Shown here: positions 15,739 to 33,346 of the stretch, one piece after another
Layout: each line of letters opens with the position of its first letter
How positions within the stretch are numbered: position 1 is the first letter of the stretch
Source of the DNA: a virus
IMG/VR virus record: IMGVR_UViG_3300013306_000001
Coordinates: 1 to 64,000 of that record
Length of the DNA: 64,000 bases
Strand: one strand, 5' to 3'
Position numbers and translations under genes: made by a program
Notes under the pieces: model-generated
Seen by the model: only the letters and a program-made list of their open reading frames with translations
Told to the model about the DNA's origin: nothing
The model's database searches: none

Positions 15739-16025
15739 TTTGTCCCCTCAAGAAATTCTAAGTAATCCATACAACCTTTTGTGAAGGCATCCCCGTTCAG
15801 ATATTTAGCCACAGAGTGAAAAGCAATTGTGCCACCTTCTTTATGTTTAAACTCAACACGCAGGTGGTCGTGTGAATGAAGACACCACCCACCTTTGATA
15901 AGCTGCCCTGCTTCCAGTAACCCATTAAACCAATCAGACTTCTTATATTTACTCATAGCAATCCTCTTGCGCATTCTTTTGCACATCTTAGACGATTTTA
16001 GCCGAAGATATGCACTATATTTCAC
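15735..16025 (-). CDS. hypothetical protein
   Basis: 96 aa coupled ORF. Confidence 0.65.
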   Translation of the reverse strand: MKYSAYLRLKSSKMCKRMRKRIAMSKYKKSDWFNGLLEAGQLIKGGWCLHSHDHLRVEFKHKEGGTIAFHSVAKYLNGDAFTKGCMDYLEFLEGTK

Positions 16026-24580: not shown

Positions 24581-25939
24581 TTGATCTATGAATTAAGTCA
24601 TATGACAGAATATGATGTATATGCAGTTAACCTACAGTGTGTTAGAAGCTATATCTATTACCATGAATCTAAATACTATAAGAAGATAGTAGACGATATC
24701 ATGGAACATACTAGGTACAAGTGGGAAGATGCAGTTAGGTGGTGGGTTTCTAACTCCGCTCGTGCAATCAAGAAGAAAGCTAATGGATTTGTCTTTAGCT
24801 TGGATAGGAATGCATACAGTAAGACAAAGCAACGTATTAATTATAGAAAGGTTAAATCTCTTGTTGATTTTCTGGAACAAAAAGGTTATATTGACATTTA
24901 TAAAGGCTATGTTAAGTCTTGGAAGATGGAGAAAGGAAAGCTCATTCCGGATGAAGCTATTGCTTCTTGCATGATCTTCAGAAAGCGTACAAAAGAGATG
25001 TGGGAGAATGTAAATACCTCATACAATCTGTGGAAAGAATTGGAAGAGAATGATCTGGCGATCATTCGTGATCGGGAGACTAAAGAACAAATGCCTACTC
25101 GTGGACACAAAGGTTTTAAAGAAATTAAAAATGAGGTAAGAGATATGAACGATACACTGCAAGGCAGCTCAATTACATTTGATGGTGTTCCTATTGCTGA
25201 CGTATCTTATCGCCGCATCTTCAGTGGAGATATGGATAGCGGAGGTCGTCTGTATACTCTCGGTGGAGGTGTTCAGTTATTACCTCAACATGTGCGGGCA
25301 TCATCCTTAATGATTGATGGTGAATCATCTGTGGAGCTGGATTACTCCGCAATTCATCCCTCAATCTGTTATCAATTGATGTACAAAACAAATGGGTTTA
25401 ACATTTATGATGTAATGGGTAAGGACTTTTCACCATATGATGCAGATCTATCATTCCTTAAGGTTGATGGCAGGTTGAAAGAAGAATGGGAGAAGAAAAC
25501 AGGCAAGAAACACAACCCTATTCGTCAATTAGCCAAGTTAGCTATCTTGATTGGCATGAACTCCAATGATAAGAATAGCGCAGCTTGGACACTCGGAAAT
25601 AAAGTCAAACAAGACCGAGCGAAGGCAATTAAAGATCAAGACTTCTATGCCCTGATAGGAGAAACAGACTATTGCGCTGTCCTTGAGGCTGTTCAAAGCC
25701 ACAACGATTTCATTAAGGATCATTTCTTTTCTGATTCAGGCATTGTTCTTCAAAACATAGACAGTAAGATCATGATGCGTATTGTTGGTGCAATGGGGAC
25801 AAAGGGTCATACAGTGCTGGCTTATCATGACAGTTGTTTGGTAAAAGCTTCTGCTGAAGATGACTTGCGTGAAGCTATGTATTCGGCATGGGAGACAGTA
25901 TTGGGAGACACAACATTTTGTAAGGTAGACAAGAAATGA
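24581..25939 (+). CDS. family-A/T7-RNAP-related polymerase-like protein (TV-Pol-like)
   Basis: GGRLY, motif A-like VELDYSAIHP, motif B-like R..AK, LQNIDS and motif C LAYHDS; AGGAGG RBS with TTG start. Confidence 0.65.
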   Translation: MIYELSHMTEYDVYAVNLQCVRSYIYYHESKYYKKIVDDIMEHTRYKWEDAVRWWVSNSARAIKKKANGFVFSLDRNAYSKTKQRINYRKVKSLVDFLEQKGYIDIYKGYVKSWKMEKGKLIPDEAIASCMIFRKRTKEMWENVNTSYNLWKELEENDLAIIRDRETKEQMPTRGHKGFKEIKNEVRDMNDTLQGSSITFDGVPIADVSYRRIFSGDMDSGGRLYTLGGGVQLLPQHVRASSLMIDGESSVELDYSAIHPSICYQLMYKTNGFNIYDVMGKDFSPYDADLSFLKVDGRLKEEWEKKTGKKHNPIRQLAKLAILIGMNSNDKNSAAWTLGNKVKQDRAKAIKDQDFYALIGETDYCAVLEAVQSHNDFIKDHFFSDSGIVLQNIDSKIMMRIVGAMGTKGHTVLAYHDSCLVKASAEDDLREAMYSAWETVLGDTTFCKVDKK

Positions 25940-26118
25940 AAATTGAAAAGTTTGATAAAAGTGTTTCCACAGTAAAATATAAGTTCGGCAGACTAGGATG
26001 GACGTTTCATTGGGTACATGAGCATTGCGATTCATTTACACTAATTGATTCTCATGGGATTTGGAGAGGTTTGTTCGGAAAATTAATCTGGTTAGAGAAG
26101 AAGTCTAACTATAAATAA
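25936..26118 (+). CDS. hypothetical protein
   Basis: Coupled (ATGA) 60 aa ORF. Confidence 0.55.
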   Translation: MKIEKFDKSVSTVKYKFGRLGWTFHWVHEHCDSFTLIDSHGIWRGLFGKLIWLEKKSNYK

Positions 26119-26134
26119 TTATTTTCACAAACAC

Positions 26135-26163
26135 TTGACTTTGAGAAATCTATAGAGTAGTAT
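26135..26163 (+). promoter_or_regulatory. sigma70-type promoter
   Basis: TTGACT-17-TAGTAT. Confidence 0.55.
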
Positions 26164-26205
26164 GTTTCTTATAGAACTTAAATAACTTTGTGTTGGAGGT
26201 GTAAT

Positions 26206-26397
26206 ATCAGATGCCGATGCTGTAATTTACCTCTTTCGTGGAGGAATTTTAAAATGAAACAAGACGATGGAAGTGAAGAAGACTTCTGTACAAACTGCTT
26301 AAACATTGTCTATAACATAGATCAGTACGAACCAAGACAGTATACGTTTGAGCAAGAGTGTGATCCTTTCCATATTCCAGAAACATATATAGAATAA
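26206..26397 (+). CDS. small Zn-finger protein, probable ATC start
   Basis: GGAGGTG SD 4 nt before the in-frame ATC; CRCC...CTNC motif. Confidence 0.55.
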   Translation: MRCRCCNLPLSWRNFKMKQDDGSEEDFCTNCLNIVYNIDQYEPRQYTFEQECDPFHIPETYIE

Positions 26398-26404
26398 ATA
26401 ATGC

Positions 26405-26433
26405 TTGCTATTGTCATGTAATAATGTTACAAT
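26405..26433 (+). promoter_or_regulatory. sigma70-type promoter for the RNA locus
   Basis: TTGCTA-17-TACAAT with TG. Confidence 0.6.
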
Positions 26434-26465
26434 GTTGTATGGATGATATGTTTTATCTGAAAGCA

Positions 26466-26878
26466 AGCCTTGGTGATATGGCACAACTCTAGCCATTTCC
26501 ATATGTTCGTCGGTAGGGTGAGAGTAAGGCTAAAAAGATTTATGAGAAGCCAGATAACCCTTCATTTGGTTATTGAAAGGTCAGACTACCACTGACGGCA
26601 GCTACTGGGATACTTTGATATTCTGGTCTGACGCTGACACAGCTTCTCACTTAACACATTCAATCTTGACGGAGATTGTCTAATTCCCTTTAAGGGGCTT
26701 GAAGAATTCTGACGAGAGTTTAAAGTCTTCCATTGTGTAACTGGGAGCAATGAATCAGCTGAAAGGCAAAAAGAGCATGCAGTTCAATTCTGCTCGGTAG
26801 CTGAGGGTTGGTACGCAACCGTTCGATTCGGTTCTGGTCTATCTGGTGATAGAAGCTTGACTGATGGAAAGACATCAC
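26466..26878 (+). ncRNA. large structured non-coding RNA, family unknown
   Basis: No credible ORF. Nested stems (TGAGAAGC/GCTTCTCA, TCAGACTA/TGGTCTGA, TCAGCT/AGCTGA) and two T-arm-like hairpins (GCAG-TTCAATT-CTGC, AACCG-TTCGATT-CGGTT). Confidence 0.55.
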
Positions 26879-26885
26879 AAATTTC

Positions 26886-26968
26886 GGATGAGTAGTCCCA
26901 GGATTCTTCTAAAGTCCTACGGGTAATTGGAACTGTAAATGTGGGATCGTACCCCATCTCATCCTCCA
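26886..26968 (+). tRNA. atypical tRNA-like RNA with Arg(UCU) anticodon loop
   Basis: Acceptor GGATGAG/CTCATCC-T-CCA, T arm GTGGG-ATCGTAC-CCCAT, hairpin AGGATT-CTTCTAA-AGTCCT; no D arm at the canonical position. Confidence 0.6.
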
Positions 26969-26977
26969 AAGTTTCAC

Positions 26978-27221
26978 CCACAATCACTAAGATTAAGTCT
27001 AAAAAGATTGTGGTATTCACGCTGTCATCTCCTCTCCTAAGACAGCACTTAAAGATATTTCAAGTCTCCTCTCACTCCTCATTCTTGAAATATCTTTGGC
27101 CTTGGATAGATTATAAGAGTTCTCTCCTTCTCGTATAATCTTCGCTAACAGGGCCATTTCTTAAGCGTTCTTCTTCATTATGAATACTACAGGGCATAGC
27201 CGGTAAGTTCGCTTAAGAAAT
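26978..27221 (+). ncRNA. tandem hairpin array with CUCCU (anti-SD) loops
   Basis: Five consecutive hairpins; three loops carry five copies of CTCCT in total. Confidence 0.6.
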
Positions 27222-27245
27222 CACTTATTCATAGGAATATACATT

Positions 27246-27644
27246 ATGACTACCAAGAATAAAAACCCTAGTCTGGCAACAAGATTTGACGGTCCAAAGT
27301 CAAATCGTAAAACCACTGGCGGAAATAGCAAACGAATCACTAAAAGCAAGCTTCGCATCCTAGAAGAACAGTTGCTTGAGATGAAAGATAAAGCTCTTGA
27401 GAACATCAAGAAGAGTATCAACGGCGAGCAGATTGATACTGAACAGCTTGGCTCAAGTAAGTGGTTGGTTAACAGCATCGTAACAGTCAGTAAATCGGCT
27501 AATGCTGAAGAAATCTCTTACAACAAGCTTAAGTTTGAAGTGAAGGATTCTCTGGAAGCTGGTGAACAGACTCCTTCTGAAATCAAAGCAGAATTGAAAC
27601 CTCGTTTGAGTCTAGTTTATACAGAACCTGATCAAGACGAGTAA
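27246..27644 (+). CDS. putative terminase small subunit
   Basis: Basic N-terminus with TRF, helical 132 aa protein upstream of the packaging module; positional inference. Confidence 0.4.
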   Translation: MTTKNKNPSLATRFDGPKSNRKTTGGNSKRITKSKLRILEEQLLEMKDKALENIKKSINGEQIDTEQLGSSKWLVNSIVTVSKSANAEEISYNKLKFEVKDSLEAGEQTPSEIKAELKPRLSLVYTEPDQDE

Positions 27645-27755
27645 CTAACACGGCCACGGCCTGTGTATCGGACTGCCTAGTCTAAACCCGTACTTCTGGC
27701 GAAGTACATCTGTTAGTGAAAGGGATGGCCGTCCTTGTCTTGCCACATCAAGACT
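27644..27755 (+). ncRNA. small multi-hairpin structured RNA candidate
   Basis: ACTAACA/TGTTAGT stem; hairpins GGC-CACG-GCC, GGACT-GCCT-AGTCT, GTACTTC-TGGC-GAAGTAC and GTCTTG-CCACAT-CAAGAC. Confidence 0.4.
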
Positions 27756-27789
27756 AGCTAGCACTTATTTAATCTATGTGGAGATATAT

Positions 27790-27879
27790 GGAACAGACGC
27801 CAGTATTAGTTTGCTGGCATCCACCTCATAAGTGGAAGTCTTTTGACCGTTGCGAGTGCAATTCTCGCCTGTTCCCCCA
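27790..27879 (+). tRNA. atypical tRNA, anticodon CAT (Met or Ile2)
   Basis: Acceptor GGAACAG/CTGTTCC-C-CCA; anticodon arm TCCAC-CTCATAA-GTGGA; T arm GCGAG-TGCAATT-CTCGC; 7-bp D stem; long variable arm. Confidence 0.7.
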
Positions 27880-27885
27880 AATTCT

Positions 27886-28614
27886 ATGAAATACACTAAA
27901 GAAATACTTAAACAGAAACTGCTGGATTTTGTTGAAATATATAATAGGAATCCCACTGGCAGAGACTGTAAAAAGTACCCAGAAATATTAGTCGGTAAAA
28001 ATACTTTCGTCAGATATTTTGGCTCATTTAATTCAGCCATTTTATATGCAGGACTAATTCCCTATACGAGAGATTTAAGAGACTATAAAACTATTTCTTG
28101 TGAATTCTGCAATATTGAGTTTATAGATAAAACTTGTGAAGCTAAGTTTTGTTCGAAGTCTTGTTATAATTCTTCAAGGAAAGATCAAGCTAAAAATAGC
28201 AAACCCGACATAGTTATAAAGGTTTGCTTAGAGTGTAATTGTTCATTTGAATCTGACAAAAAGAGCAGAAAGGGAAATTTCTGTAATTTTATTTGTAGGT
28301 CTACCAATCAGATGAAGAACACTTCAATTGGTGAGATGTCTAGATATACTGAACAAAATAAATACCGAGCTATTAGAGATAAAGCACATAATTTCTATAA
28401 CACTTTTGGTAAAAGTTGTTCTTGTGCAAATTGCGGTTACTCAAAGCATGTTGAGCTTTGTCATATAAAGGCAATTACTGATTTTGATAAATCAGAAAGT
28501 GTTTGGGAATGCAATAAACCCGAAAACATTATATTCTTATGTCCTAACTGTCACTGGGAGCTAGACTATGGCGACCTTTCAGTAGAAGATATAAGGGTTT
28601 GTAATTTGTCGTAA
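27886..28614 (+). CDS. HNH endonuclease with Zn-finger repeats, inserted in the tRNA locus
   Basis: N-terminal YTKE.L...YFGSFN.A repeat, CxxC/FCSKSC modules and CANCG...ELCHIK...N.IFLCPNCH HNH motif; ATG at 27886. Confidence 0.8.
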   Translation: MKYTKEILKQKLLDFVEIYNRNPTGRDCKKYPEILVGKNTFVRYFGSFNSAILYAGLIPYTRDLRDYKTISCEFCNIEFIDKTCEAKFCSKSCYNSSRKDQAKNSKPDIVIKVCLECNCSFESDKKSRKGNFCNFICRSTNQMKNTSIGEMSRYTEQNKYRAIRDKAHNFYNTFGKSCSCANCGYSKHVELCHIKAITDFDKSESVWECNKPENIIFLCPNCHWELDYGDLSVEDIRVCNLS

Positions 28615-31049: not shown

Positions 31050-31637
31050 ATGAATGAAGTATTACTTACCCACGAGTATTTAAAAGAAGCTTTAACTTAT
31101 AATCCAGAAACTGGAAAGTTTACTTGGAGGTTGGATAGACCAGATTCACACTTCAAAGATTGGAGAGGTAAGAATGGCTTCTATAGTAATATTAGTCCTT
31201 CCTTAGAGGCGGGATCAGTATCAAGAGTGACCAAGAGAAATCCTTCATCATATATTGTAATCGGCCTTTGTGGAAAGCTTTATAAAGCCCACCGCCTTGC
31301 CTGGTTTTATGTAAACGGTGAATGGCCGTCCGAAGATATTGATCATATTGATTTAAATACTCAAAATAACGCAATATCTAATTTACAACTTAGTATTGAT
31401 AAACTTAACCACAGAAACCGTTCCAAATACAGTAATAATTCTTCTGGAGTTGTTGGTGTATCTTTCCATAAAAAGACTGGTAAATGGCAAGCTGAAGGTC
31501 AAGAAATTGTTGACGGTAAGAGAGTCAGACACTATTTAGGTCTATTTAAAAATCTAGAAGATGCAGCAAATGCTCGAAGAGATTGGGAAGTCGCGTACGG
31601 ATATTCTGAAAATCATGGTAAAGAAATTTCCAGATGA
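31050..31637 (+). CDS. HNH-AP2 homing endonuclease
   Basis: L.YNPETGKFTW, YKAHRLAWFY..GEWP..IDHID...NN.ISNL and NSSGVVGVSF...KWQA...YLGLF. Confidence 0.9.
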   Translation: MNEVLLTHEYLKEALTYNPETGKFTWRLDRPDSHFKDWRGKNGFYSNISPSLEAGSVSRVTKRNPSSYIVIGLCGKLYKAHRLAWFYVNGEWPSEDIDHIDLNTQNNAISNLQLSIDKLNHRNRSKYSNNSSGVVGVSFHKKTGKWQAEGQEIVDGKRVRHYLGLFKNLEDAANARRDWEVAYGYSENHGKEISR

Positions 31638-33346
31638 CAGATATGGATTATAGTTTCCAGCCAGCTTCGCGAAAGCAAAGCTGGTTCTTGGCTAGCAATA
31701 GTAATATCATTGTATATGGTGGTGAACTTAGCGCCTCCATTTAAAACCCCTCTAATTCGGTGAAACCCAAACGTAAAGACGTGGGTAATACCGAGCGAAG
31801 ACTTATTTATAAGTAACGTGTAGAGACTAACGCTGATGAATGTAAGCGAGTAGGTTGCAAGTGCAATCGAAACGGGGGGCTACGAAAGTAGAAGATATAG
31901 TCCGATCCTTTGCGAAAGCGAAGAGAGTTTAACGAACTCTATAACTAAAAGGCTATGGGTGGTGGCAAGTCCTATTGTGGTTTGCTACGACATCTCCGCT
32001 GGGTTGACGATCCTCAGTATCGTGGATTCATTATCCGTAAAAACCAAACAACTTTGATGAAAGCTTCTGGTTTGTTTGACGAAGCTACCAGCTTATATAA
32101 AGCGTTTGATCCTAAAGTAAAAATTAACAAAAAGGCTATGACCTTTACGTTCCCAAGTGGTGCCATTATTGCCATGTCTCACTTGGAAACTGACGAAGAT
32201 GCAGAGAAATTTCGTGGCCTCCAAATTTCCGGGGCGATGATAGATGAAGCCACTCAGATAACCGAAGACCATACTCTGGTTGTATTATCTCGGCTGCGTT
32301 CTAAAGCAAAGATGGTTCCCAATCTTTTCCTGACTTGTAACCCTTCACCTGATTCTTTTTTGAGACGTTGGATTGATTGGTGGATTATTCCAAAAGGAGA
32401 AGAAAACGAAGGTCGGCCCGACCCCGAACGGGATGGTAAAGTTCGTTGGTTTATTCGAATCGCTGGTGACATGATTTGGGCAGACACAAAAGAGGAACTC
32501 CTGGAGATATACGGCAACAGAGACGGTGAAGGTAATATTTTACCGGACACAGATGAAAAACAACATTGTCGTCCACTGTCCCTACAGTTTATTTCAGCCA
32601 CAATCTACGATAATCCGCCACTTATTAAATCCAACCCCGGATATCTTGCAAACCTTCAAGGTCTCAAGCGCGTAAAAAAGGAGCGCGACCTTTACGGGAA
32701 CTGGGATATTCGTGAGGATGCCGCAGGATTTTGGAAAGCGGAGTGGCTGGGTGAGCCCGTAAATGAATATGATTTAAATATTGTTCAATATTGTCGTGCA
32801 TGGGATATTGCCGGAAGTTTACCTTGTGAAGCGTTGCCAAATCCTGATTGGACTGCTGGCGTTTTAATGGGTAAAACAAAAGAAGGTCTATATATCATTC
32901 TAGATGTTGTTCGATTTAGGGCAAGATTTGGAGAGGTGATGCAGCGCATTGTAGAGACGGGCTTAGATGACCCCGATGGTACTCAAATCATTATTCCACA
33001 AGAGCCGGGCCAGGCAGGTAAAGCTGCTGGACAAATGATGATTAAAGAACTTATTTCTGAAGGTCTTTTCGCAAGAATGCGCCCGTCTAATAAGTCTAAG
33101 GTTGTACGGTTTCAACCAGTAGTTTCGGCATCGGAAGCGGGTCTTGTTCGTTATGTTCGCGGTGCATGGAATGATGCTTATTTCTCAGAGATGGAAGGCT
33201 TCGATGGAACCCGCGCTGTGAAGGATGACCAAGTTGATGCAACTAGTGACTCATTCATTACATTAGCACAGAAAATCCATATTGGTAATTTTCTTGGTGG
33301 TTTAGTAACTGCTGACCTCTCAACTAAAAATCCATTTAATCGCTAA
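31634..33346 (+). CDS. terL: terminase large subunit, two exons (31634-31723 and 31952-33346), 494 aa after splicing
   Basis: Splicing restores Walker A IIVYGG|AMGGGKS; Walker B MIDEA, LTCNP, RAWD and DDQVDA nuclease motifs. Confidence 0.9.
31724..31951 (+). mobile_element. group I intron without internal ORF (228 nt)
   Basis: P AATTCGGTGAAA, Q AATACCGAGC, R GTAGAGACTA, S AAGATATAGTCC. P1 with U.G splice pair, P10 TAGC/GCTA and terminal G at 31951. Confidence 0.9.

What the first reader, a model, noticed from the sequence alone, without database searches (positions are those of the whole stretch)
26886..26968. tRNA-like RNA with rearranged arms: anticodon arm first, D-like arm second
Seen: a perfect 7-bp acceptor stem with U-CCA and a T arm. 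The hairpin with a canonical CU-UCU-AA loop (Arg UCU, 26908-26910) sits only 7 nt after the acceptor strand. It is followed by ACGG-GTAATTGGAA-CTGT, a 4-bp stem with a D-loop-like AAUUGGAA. An alternative fold pairs TAGTCCCA with TGGAACTG into one long arm. Inference: not a decoding tRNA, but perhaps a decoy for anticodon nucleases or synthetases, or a processing signal.
Basis: partly seen in the sequence, partly recalled or inferred. Interest (0 to 1): 0.7.

Follow-up and report, generated by a model that had tools for sequence, protein, structure and literature searches.

The report
Non-cloverleaf phage arginine tRNA gene
This 83-base phage gene is very probably a working arginine tRNA whose D-arm is replaced by pairing that wraps around the anticodon arm, a layout that gene finders miss and that I found described in no paper.

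Summary
Window 26886-26968 (+) has a 7-bp acceptor stem, U73-CCA, a T arm and an anticodon hairpin with loop CUUCUAA (UCU), but no D hairpin.

It is a conserved gene. I collected 22 distinct homologues from Pseudomonas PA11-like phages, IMG/VR and metagenomes. Similarity to the closest relatives stops exactly at its two ends.

Covariation supports a three-way junction. The strand after U8 (AGU-CCC) pairs with two segments 3' of the anticodon hairpin (GGG and ACU). These flank a bulged, D-loop-like UAAUUGGA.

I read it as a decoding tRNA-Arg(UCU), confidence about 0.7:
- It is the only tRNA-like gene in PA11 and one of two in this 90-kb phage.
- About 40% of Arg codons in both phages are AGA/AGG.
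- In Felix O1 a same-topology UCU gene fills the slot where Sf14 has a canonical tRNA-Arg(UCU).
- The base after GG (position-20 equivalent) is A in Arg-type and U in Ile-type members.

Expression and charging are not shown, and a decoy role remains possible.

Earlier notes of this scan reported the same layout on other DNA. My paper searches found no description.

The parts
26886..26968 (+). whole gene, 83 nt: non-cloverleaf tRNA-Arg(UCU) with encoded CCA
   Evidence: The conserved block ends at both gene ends. R1 scores it 95 bits.
26886..26892 (+). acceptor stem, 5' strand GGAUGAG (positions 1-7)
   Evidence: Pairs with 26958-26964. All 7 pairs show double changes across the 22 sequences.
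26893..26893 (+). U8, invariant; RNAalifold pairs it with G50
   Evidence: UA at positions 8-9 in 22 of 22.
26894..26896 (+). distal core helix, 5' strand A9 G10 U11
   Evidence: Pairs with 26932-26934. Pair 11-47 is UA 13, CG 6, UG 2, other 1. Across the class, pair 10 is GC 22, AU 4.
26897..26899 (+). proximal core helix, 5' strand CCC (positions 12-14)
   Evidence: Pairs with GGG 26921-26923. Invariant within the UCU subfamily, which the search patterns partly forced. Across the class the middle pair is CG 21, GC 4, AU 3, UA 1. RNAalifold predicts the helix on its own.
26900..26918 (+). anticodon arm: A15-U33 pair, 5-bp stem 26901-26905 / 26913-26917, loop CUUCUAA 26906-26912, anticodon UCU 26908-26910
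   Evidence: Five of the 6 pairs show double changes; the loop is invariant in 22 of 22. Window and L006 differ only by two compensatory pair changes in this stem.
26919..26920 (+). 2-nt bulge A34 C35 between the anticodon arm and the proximal helix
26921..26923 (+). proximal core helix, 3' strand GGG (positions 36-38)
26924..26931 (+). D-loop-like bulge UAAUUGGA (positions 39-46): UA, then GG, then A at the position-20 equivalent
   Evidence: Its length varies only between AA and GG and after GG, as in true D loops. A follows GG in 20 of 22. The role in the elbow and in ArgRS recognition is inferred.
26932..26934 (+). distal core helix, 3' strand A47 C48 U49
26935..26940 (+). linker GUAAAU (positions 50-55), in the place of the variable loop
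   Evidence: The last four bases, AAAU, are conserved or invariant.
26941..26957 (+). T arm: stem GUGGG / CCCAU, loop AUCGUAC
   Evidence: Four of 5 pairs show double changes. U55 C56 in 22 of 22. Positions 54/58 are U-A in 18 and A-U in 4, including the window.
26958..26964 (+). acceptor stem, 3' strand CUCAUCC
26965..26968 (+). discriminator U73 and encoded CCA
   Evidence: Across the family the discriminator is A 10, U 8, G 4, and CCA is encoded in 9 of 22.

Best explanation
The element is a phage gene for an elongator tRNA-Arg(UCU) that is not a cloverleaf.

Shown by comparative analysis:
- A normal 7-bp acceptor stem, T arm and anticodon arm.
- No D hairpin. The strand after U8 (A9-C14) continues straight into the anticodon stem.
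- That strand pairs with two segments lying 3' of the anticodon hairpin: GGG (proximal helix) and ACU (distal helix).
- The two segments are separated by an 8-nt bulge, UAAUUGGA, that looks like a D loop.
- The result is a three-way junction with one long rod of about 12 bp ending in the anticodon.

Inferred:
- The rod takes the place of the stacked D and anticodon stems.
- The bulged GG reaches U55-C56 of the T loop to make the elbow, giving an L shape.
- The A after GG serves as the A20 identity element, so host ArgRS charges the RNA.
- The RNA is cut out by RNase P and 3' trimming (CCA is encoded), then reads AGA, and probably AGG, on host ribosomes.
- This supplies a codon pair that makes up about 40% of Arg codons in these low-GC phages.

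Why the core is wired this way is open. My guess is that it makes the tRNA a poor substrate for host enzymes that recognise or cut ordinary tRNA-Arg.
For: Real, selected RNA
- 22 distinct homologues; 97.5% of cells paired; 17 of 24 pairs with double changes; 0 of 500 shuffles reach the covariation score.
- RNAalifold predicts the same fold on its own.
- Window and L006/L020 are 79/83 identical inside the gene and unrelated outside it. The 4 differences are two compensatory pairs in the anticodon stem.

Core wiring
- Pair 11-47 covaries: UA 13, CG 6, UG 2.
- In a 29-sequence class alignment the proximal pair 13 is CG 21, GC 4, AU 3, UA 1, and the distal pair 10 is GC 22, AU 4. This alignment was fitted to the model.

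tRNA features needed for decoding
- Loop CUUCUAA (U33, A37) in 22 of 22.
- U55 C56 in 22 of 22; positions 54/58 covary, U-A 18 and A-U 4.
- The bulge keeps UA...GG and changes length where D loops do.

Isotype signals
- The base after GG is A in 20 of 22 UCU-subfamily members and in all 6 other Arg-type members (4 UCG, 2 second-type UCU).
- It is U in all 5 Ile-type members (4 GAU, 1 UAU).
- The review PMC9976931, Table 1 and the arginine section, lists A20, C35, U/G36 and A/G/U73 for bacterial Arg, and U20, A73 for Ile.

Demand
- PA11: no ARAGORN tRNA, none annotated; AGA 23.4% and AGG 18.4% of Arg codons.
- Window phage: AGA 23.5%, AGG 16.9%; its only other tRNA-like gene carries CAU.
- The TC6 paper reports 45.06% GC against 66.35% in the host, and 'No intact tRNA genes' by tRNAscan-SE (passages).

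Slot equivalence
- Felix O1 and Sf14 share tRNA gene order.
- Between tRNA-Ile(GAU) and tRNA-Ser(UGA), Sf14 has a canonical 77-nt tRNA-Arg(UCU). Felix O1 has a same-topology UCU gene there (R1 43.4 bits).
- None of Felix O1's 25 ARAGORN tRNAs carries UCU.

Context
- Members lie inside phage tRNA clusters.
Against: - There is no direct evidence of a mature RNA, of charging or of decoding. The RNA-library contigs laid on the window cover only 26912-26996 and 26917-26965, come from relatives, and may be DNA carry-over.
- In 9 of the 22 member-bearing loci scanned, a canonical tRNA-Arg(UCU) lies in the same stretch, often adjacent. There the element is at least redundant and could do something else.
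- The canonical tertiary core (8-14, 15-48, 26-44, D-stem contacts) cannot form as such. Whether RNase P, EF-Tu and the ribosome accept the fold is untested.
- Folding one sequence gives no support. The tRNA-like fold is -21.0 kcal/mol against an MFE of -22.3, with z = -0.85.
- CCC, GGG and GGGUAAUUGG are invariant in the subfamily partly because my search patterns required them. The class alignment that shows their covariation was fitted to the model.
- R1 separates the Felix O1-type member poorly from ordinary tRNAs: 43.4 bits against up to 38.7.
I could not see which part.
Confidence: 0.7

Rival explanations
1. A tRNA-Arg(UCU) look-alike that does not decode. It would soak up or divert a host protein that acts on tRNA-Arg, such as an anticodon nuclease, a modification enzyme or ArgRS itself.
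For: A canonical tRNA-Arg(UCU) sits beside it in 9 of 22 loci, so decoding alone does not explain keeping both. The anticodon loop and the D-loop-like bulge are the most conserved parts, as expected for protein-recognition surfaces. The view that phage tRNAs answer host tRNA nucleases, colicin D among them, is in print (eLife 2023, PMC10264068; abstract and one passage).
Against: PA11-like phages and the window phage carry no canonical UCU gene, yet use AGA/AGG for about 40% of Arg codons. In Felix O1 the gene fills the one slot that is canonical in Sf14. A decoy needs neither a 7-bp acceptor stem maintained by covariation, nor CCA, nor an allowed discriminator. No nuclease or partner gene is consistently adjacent.
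Confidence: 0.15
2. A processing signal only. A tRNA-shaped punctuation mark would recruit RNase P and 3' processing to cut the neighbouring structured RNAs (26466-26878 upstream, 26978-27221 downstream) out of a long transcript.
For: It lies between two ORF-free, structured stretches in an RNA-rich locus (earlier notes seen, not tested by me). Its acceptor and T arms are intact.
Against: A cutting signal does not need an invariant CUUCUAA loop, a covarying anticodon stem or isotype-matched bases. Homologues sit in quite different surroundings: after an HNH gene in PA11 and inside tRNA arrays elsewhere. Any real tRNA would give the same cutting as a by-product.
Confidence: 0.04
3. A decaying or chance tRNA remnant with no function.
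For: Standard finders reject it. The TC6 authors found 'No intact tRNA genes'. One sequence alone does not fold better than shuffles.
Against: It is conserved across unrelated phages and habitats with compensatory changes in every helix. Conservation has sharp edges at the gene ends. A Felix O1-type relative occurs in 263 phage records.
Confidence: 0.02
4. A working tRNA with a different job from ordinary Arg decoding, for example charged by another synthetase or used at special sites.
For: The unusual core and its coexistence with a canonical isoacceptor. The discriminator varies: A 10, U 8, G 4.
Against: The loop has the normal 7 nt with U33 and A37. C35 and U36 are invariant and the A20 equivalent is nearly so; these are the bacterial ArgRS determinants. 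All three discriminators seen are listed as accepted for bacterial Arg. I saw no sign of recoding in the phage ORFs, but I did not search for it.
Confidence: 0.07

Closest known systems
Canonical class I bacterial and phage tRNA-Arg(UCU) (Rfam RF00005), for example the 77-nt gene of Shigella phage Sf14 at 15811-15887
   Same: 7-bp acceptor stem, 5-bp T stem with a UUCRA-type loop, 5-bp anticodon stem with loop CUUCUAA, GG followed by A in the D-loop(-like) element, a place in phage tRNA clusters, and in the Felix O1/Sf14 pair the same slot.
   Different: There is no local D hairpin. The 5' D-side strand runs on into the anticodon stem and pairs with two segments 3' of the anticodon arm, giving a three-way rather than a four-way junction. 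It is 83 nt long. RF00005 does not match it and ARAGORN misses or mis-draws it.
D-armless metazoan mitochondrial tRNA-Ser(GCU/UCU) (Kuhle et al. 2022, PMC9427863, passages read; Krahn et al. 2020 review, PMC7609411, passages read)
   Same: [quoted passage not shown] These are natural tRNAs that work without a cloverleaf.
   Different: The human mitochondrial tRNA has lost the tertiary core and elbow and has a remodelled T loop with no bulged bases. The phage RNA keeps a standard T loop and a bulged GG motif. It is encoded by phages and must use ordinary bacterial enzymes, not a co-evolved mitochondrial synthetase. The review does not mention phages (0 occurrences).
allo-tRNAs with 8/4 or 9/3 acceptor/T branches (Mukai et al., PMC5389517; only the start of the abstract seen in a search listing)
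   Same: Non-standard tRNA shapes found in bacterial and metagenome data.
   Different: By that abstract their oddity is in the acceptor/T branch. Here that branch is the normal 7/5 and the D side is altered.
Laboratory-evolved E. coli using a tRNA with a non-canonical fold (PMC11551756; only the start of the abstract seen in search listings)
   Same: It asks whether bacterial translation can use a tRNA that is not a cloverleaf.
   Different: That work is engineered, and its abstract starts from the statement that all known bacterial tRNAs are cloverleaves. This is a natural gene family.
Candidate structured RNA DNAVirus_2961 in the IMG/VR survey of Fremin et al. 2023 (PMC10690425, passages read)
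   Same: A phage RNA motif that only sometimes overlaps ARAGORN tRNA-Arg calls, listed as 'tRNA or tRNA-like'. ARAGORN behaves the same way on this family.
   Different: I could not tell whether it is the same family, because the figure and the supplementary tables are not available to me. The text gives no topology, anticodon or function.

Membership tests
Canonical cloverleaf tRNA (class I, bacterial type; Rfam RF00005) | 7-bp acceptor stem, discriminator, 3' CCA (encoded or added) | tested here: met
   all 7 pairs covary. CCA is encoded in 9 of 22, including the window.
Canonical cloverleaf tRNA (class I, bacterial type; Rfam RF00005) | T arm: 5-bp stem, 7-nt loop with U55 C56 and a 54-58 pair | tested here: met
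   U55 C56 in 22 of 22; positions 54/58 are U-A 18 and A-U 4.
Canonical cloverleaf tRNA (class I, bacterial type; Rfam RF00005) | Anticodon arm: 5-bp stem, 7-nt loop with U33 and a purine at 37 | tested here: met
   loop CUUCUAA in 22 of 22.
Canonical cloverleaf tRNA (class I, bacterial type; Rfam RF00005) | Local D hairpin between positions 9 and 26, giving a four-way junction | tested here: not met
   Only 8 nt separate the acceptor and anticodon stems. The nearest local hairpin, 3' of the anticodon arm, is not conserved: 3/22 and 9/22 paired.
Canonical cloverleaf tRNA (class I, bacterial type; Rfam RF00005) | Matches the family's covariance model or standard finders | tested here: not met
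   No RF00005 match at E<=10. ARAGORN finds nothing here. In 3 relatives it calls distorted 88-96-nt versions.
Canonical cloverleaf tRNA (class I, bacterial type; Rfam RF00005) | Is aminoacylated and decodes on the ribosome | not testable with these tools
   Only indirect support: codon demand, slot equivalence and identity bases.
Phage tRNAs with the D loop placed 3' of the anticodon arm (no published name found; earlier notes of this scan call them 'rewired') | The strand after U8 pairs with two segments 3' of the anticodon arm | tested here: met
Phage tRNAs with the D loop placed 3' of the anticodon arm (no published name found; earlier notes of this scan call them 'rewired') | A bulge with UA...GG between the two segments | tested here: met
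   It is present in the UCU, UCG, GAU and UAU members and in the Felix O1 gene.
Phage tRNAs with the D loop placed 3' of the anticodon arm (no published name found; earlier notes of this scan call them 'rewired') | Encoded by phages, usually within tRNA clusters | tested here: met
   The window is a 90-kb virus record with terminal repeats. Loci. The one pattern scan of 185,579 species genomes gave 3 matches, all chance. That scan was limited to one exact pattern.
D-armless mitochondrial tRNA-Ser(AGY) | [quoted passage not shown] | tested here: met
   The comparison rests on passages of PMC9427863.
D-armless mitochondrial tRNA-Ser(AGY) | Loss of the elbow and tertiary core; remodelled T loop without bulged bases | tested here: not met
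   A standard T loop and a GG bulge are conserved.
Non-decoding tRNA mimics (viral tRNA-like structures, YrlA-type RNAs, plant mitochondrial t-elements; the last two recalled, not looked up) | No anticodon loop under isotype-specific selection | tested here: not met
   The UCU loop is invariant. The position-20 equivalent follows the isotype (A in Arg-type, U in Ile-type members), and the discriminators seen are ones allowed for each isotype. No Rfam match to any such family.

The most novel reading that the evidence does not exclude
Bacterial translation routinely uses a second natural tRNA architecture. It is a three-way-junction tRNA in which the anticodon arm is threaded through the D stem and the D loop is a bulge. 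The design is carried by hundreds of phages, including PA11 and Felix O1, for Arg and Ile codons. Phages keep it because it escapes host enzymes that recognise or cut ordinary tRNAs, while ArgRS, EF-Tu and the ribosome still accept it.
Probability: 0.25. Interest if true: 0.9.

Novelty: new variant of a known kind. Interest (0 to 1): 0.78.

Why it matters
The cloverleaf is treated as universal outside animal mitochondria. One 2024 abstract says all known bacterial tRNAs have it (seen in the listing).

A natural, selected, non-cloverleaf tRNA used on bacterial ribosomes would have several consequences:
- It would show a second way to build the L shape.
- It would give a natural test of what ArgRS, RNase P, EF-Tu and the ribosome truly need from the tRNA core.
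- It would offer a scaffold for engineered tRNAs.

There is also a practical point. Phage genomes said to have no tRNA (PA11, TC6) or to lack an AGA reader (Felix O1) in fact carry one. Studies of phage codon compensation and of tRNA-based escape from host defence are therefore working from incomplete gene lists. The family can be tested at once in cultured phages.

Tried and rejected
- Rfam at the gathering threshold over the whole window found only a group I intron. At E<=10 over 26000-28500 it gave one chance hit to a flavivirus element and no tRNA.
- Folding one strand gave a non-tRNA MFE with z = -0.85. Energies of the rival folds are too close to choose between them: -19.6, -21.0 and -21.5 kcal/mol.
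- Fold A pairs C13 and C14 with the GG of the bulge. I dropped it because relatives lengthen or shorten the bulge at that point, paralogues covary with the proximal segment instead, and RNAalifold chooses the proximal helix.
- Pattern scans gave some chance matches in coding DNA: 3 of 3 in genome contigs (L008-L010) and 4 of 17 in the third viral scan (L028, L032, L035, L037). I left these out of all alignments.
- I left identical duplicates out of A3 and A4 (L002, L003, L007, L017, L020, L021, L023, L024), and also L031, whose gene matches L026 except in the last three bases.
- Sequencing runs: 24 runs listed, only one with half of the words or more, and that one may be the source sample. I laid four RNA-labelled runs. 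Contigs from relatives cover 26912-26996 (X23, no differences) and 26917-26965 (X22). X19 is probably DNA; it has a block that starts exactly at 26886. Contigs cannot show ends, strand or transcription, so I draw no conclusion on expression from them.
- The promoter and terminator scan gave 7 promoter-like sites against 5.6 expected, which is uninformative.
- Pfam on six neighbouring ORFs found only an HNH endonuclease and a tail-repeat protein, with no partner gene.
- Papers: eight full-text searches found no description of a phage tRNA without a D hairpin.
- The Schlafen paper and the eLife paper name no nuclease specific for tRNA-Arg(UCU).

Full report
**What is there**

The window is the first 64 kb of a 90,095-bp virus record with direct terminal repeats, rated complete.
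- a perfect 7-bp acceptor stem
- discriminator U and an encoded CCA
- a T arm
- a hairpin, 8 nt after the acceptor strand, with the loop CUUCUAA (anticodon UCU at 26908-26910)
- then the D-loop-like UAAUUGGA.

ARAGORN does not call it. Rfam has no match at E<=10, not even its tRNA model. One sequence on its own is not remarkable: the MFE is a non-tRNA fold at -22.3 kcal/mol with z = -0.85.

**It is a conserved gene**

- A blastn search of 2 kb around it against 50,697 phage records matched only these ~80 bases. The 6 records were all Pseudomonas aeruginosa PA11-like podoviruses, where the stretch is unannotated or lies under the end of an HNH gene.
- Queries from relatives raised this to 9 PA11-like records plus a 634-kb uncultured phage.
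- Pattern scans found it in 4 IMG/VR contigs and in 14 of 14 metagenome matches.
- A looser pattern found it in 13 of 17 IMG/VR matches. The other 4 are chance matches in coding DNA.
- The 3 matches in 185,579 species genomes are all chance.
- Against its two closest relatives the window is 79/83 identical inside the gene. Upstream identity is 16/60 and 23/60, and downstream 21/60 and 15/60. Selection therefore acts on exactly this 83-nt unit.
- The four differences are two compensatory pair changes in the anticodon stem.

**The fold**

I aligned 22 distinct members.
- 97.5% of cells pair. 17 of 24 pairs show changes on both sides. No shuffle of 500 reaches the covariation score, and sliding the partners by 1 to 3 columns drops pairing to 38-47%.
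- All four classical helices covary.
- The key pair is 11-47, which joins the strand before the anticodon hairpin to a segment after it: UA 13, CG 6, UG 2, other 1.
Its outer pairs form in 3 of 22 and 9 of 22 sequences.
- CCC (12-14) could pair with the GGG next to the hairpin or with the GG of the bulge. Within the subfamily both are invariant, partly because my patterns required them.

Three things favour GGG:
- Relatives add or drop bases exactly between AA and GG and after GG, as real D loops do.
- RNAalifold chooses GGG unaided.
- Paralogues change both sides together (next section).

The result is a three-way junction made of three parts:
- the acceptor stem
- the T arm
- one long rod (3 + 3 + 1 + 5 bp) that ends in the anticodon and carries an 8-nt bulge, UAAUUGGA, on its 3' strand.

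**A wider class**

I built a covariance model from the 22 sequences. It scored the UCU members at 80-101 bits and ordinary tRNAs at 34 bits or less. It also picked out an intermediate group at 38-73 bits in the same phage tRNA clusters. These have the same layout with other anticodons:
- UCG: 4 members
- GAU: 4 members
- a second kind of UCU: 1 member
- UAU: 1 member, which scored lower (31.5 bits).

In the 29-sequence alignment the proximal pair 13 is CG 21, GC 4, AU 3, UA 1, and the distal pair 10 is GC 22, AU 4. That alignment was fitted to the model, so it leans towards the structure.

Following a lead from earlier notes of this scan, I checked Felix O1. An unannotated gene at 25951-26032 has the same layout with UCU (43.4 bits). 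The model separates this type poorly from ordinary tRNAs, which score up to 38.7 bits, so I read its structure by eye from the cmsearch alignment. Its relatives occur in 263 phage records of Escherichia, Salmonella, Klebsiella and other hosts. Of the 40 records listed, one annotates it, as 'tRNA-OTHER'.

**Why I think it decodes**

- The anticodon loop is invariant, with U33 and A37.
- The T loop keeps U55 C56 in 22 of 22, and positions 54/58 switch together: U-A 18, A-U 4. With the conserved GG this points to a normal elbow, which is an inference.
- The base after GG is A in 20 of 22 UCU-subfamily members and in all 6 other Arg-type members. It is U in all 5 Ile-type members. The identity review lists A20, C35, U/G36 and A/G/U73 for bacterial Arg, and U20 and A73 for Ile (PMC9976931, Table 1 and the arginine section). 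The discriminators seen here are A, U and G.
- PA11 has no other tRNA gene, and 42% of its Arg codons are AGA/AGG. The window phage uses 40% and has only one other tRNA-like gene, an odd 90-nt one with CAU. The TC6 paper gives 45% GC for the phage against 66% for its host, and reports 'No intact tRNA genes'. That P. aeruginosa hardly uses AGA is my recollection, not a result of a call.
- Felix O1 and Sf14 share tRNA gene order. Sf14 has 26 annotated tRNAs, including a canonical 77-nt tRNA-Arg(UCU) between Ile(GAU) and Ser(UGA). Felix O1 has 25 ARAGORN tRNAs in its whole genome and none with UCU. It carries the non-cloverleaf UCU gene in that very slot.

**What speaks against, or is missing**

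- Nothing here shows the RNA, its ends, its charging or its use. RNA-library contigs cover only parts of the gene, come from relatives, and cannot show transcription.
- In 9 of 22 member-bearing loci a canonical tRNA-Arg(UCU) lies close by. There the element is a second UCU species whose extra value is unexplained. This keeps the decoy idea alive. It also prompts the guess that the new wiring protects against host enzymes that act on ordinary tRNA-Arg.
I do not know which part.

**Compared with what is known**

It works like a tRNA-Arg(UCU), but it fails two defining tests of the cloverleaf family: the local D hairpin and the family model.

The nearest natural analogue is the D-armless mitochondrial tRNA-Ser, whose D-replacement strand also extends the anticodon stem. 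That RNA has lost the elbow and the tertiary core, whereas this one keeps both motifs (PMC9427863 passages).

On prior description:
- The review of non-canonical tRNAs does not mention phages.
- Eight full-text searches found no description.
- The IMG/VR survey lists a motif that sometimes overlaps ARAGORN tRNA-Arg calls. It may be this family, but its figure and tables were not available to me.

**Verdict**

- The layout reading is right. The 'not decoding' inference is probably wrong.
- The gene is a member of a widespread phage class of non-cloverleaf tRNAs that I found in no paper. It is a new variant of a known kind.
- Earlier notes of this scan reached the same reading on other genomes. 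I formed mine before opening them and tested two of their leads myself.

Noticed in passing
window 27790-27879 (+): A second odd tRNA gene, 90 nt, with anticodon CAU, a long variable arm, T loop UGCAAUU, no GG in the D loop and an encoded CCA. ARAGORN calls it tRNA-Met but Rfam's tRNA model does not match at E<=10. An identical copy is in relative L006. If it is read as Ile2, the phage's two tRNA-like genes would cover AGA and AUA.
   Followed up: partly
L013:6007-6088, L016:3761-3842, L014:14011-14093, L027:13839-13921 (UCG); L031:6038-6121(-), L033:6975-7058, L013:1260-1339, L013:1341-1424 (GAU); L013:1543-1634 (UAU); L014:12164-12250 (second UCU): tRNA genes with the same non-cloverleaf layout but other anticodons, all Arg or Ile so far, in the same phage tRNA clusters. 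ARAGORN calls some of them with wrong anticodons or odd lengths.
   Followed up: partly
L013, L026, L027, L030, L031 (phage tRNA clusters): Many 'doublets': a normal 72-76-nt tRNA beside an 82-94-nt version with the same anticodon and a long variable arm, for amino acids that normally have short ones (Asn, Trp, Cys, Pro, Thr, Gly, Val, Met/CAU).
   Followed up: no
L040 (Felix O1, NC_005282.1) 25951-26032: An unannotated non-cloverleaf tRNA-Arg(UCU) gene in a classic phage. It overlaps the annotated start of an HNH endonuclease CDS (26003-26395). Relatives occur in 263 phage records.
   Followed up: partly
window 31698-31924 (+): A group I intron (Rfam RF00028, 71.5 bits) lies between ORFs 31050-31637 and 31955-33346.
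   Followed up: no
window 27850-28614 (+): [quoted passage not shown] HNH genes also flank the element in PA11 and lie within the Felix O1 tRNA cluster.
   Followed up: no
window 26466-26878 and 26978-27221: ORF-poor stretches on both sides of the element. Earlier notes read them as structured RNAs (one with T-loop-like hairpins, one with anti-Shine-Dalgarno loops). I did not test them. In a relative's contig, similarity resumes exactly at 26886 after 645 other letters.
   Followed up: no
L012:796-865: ARAGORN calls a 70-nt tRNA with anticodon CUA (labelled Pyl), a possible amber suppressor, in a metagenome phage contig.
   Followed up: no
window 24581-25939 (+): A 452-aa ORF just upstream of the RNA-rich locus has no Pfam match at E<=0.01.
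   Followed up: no
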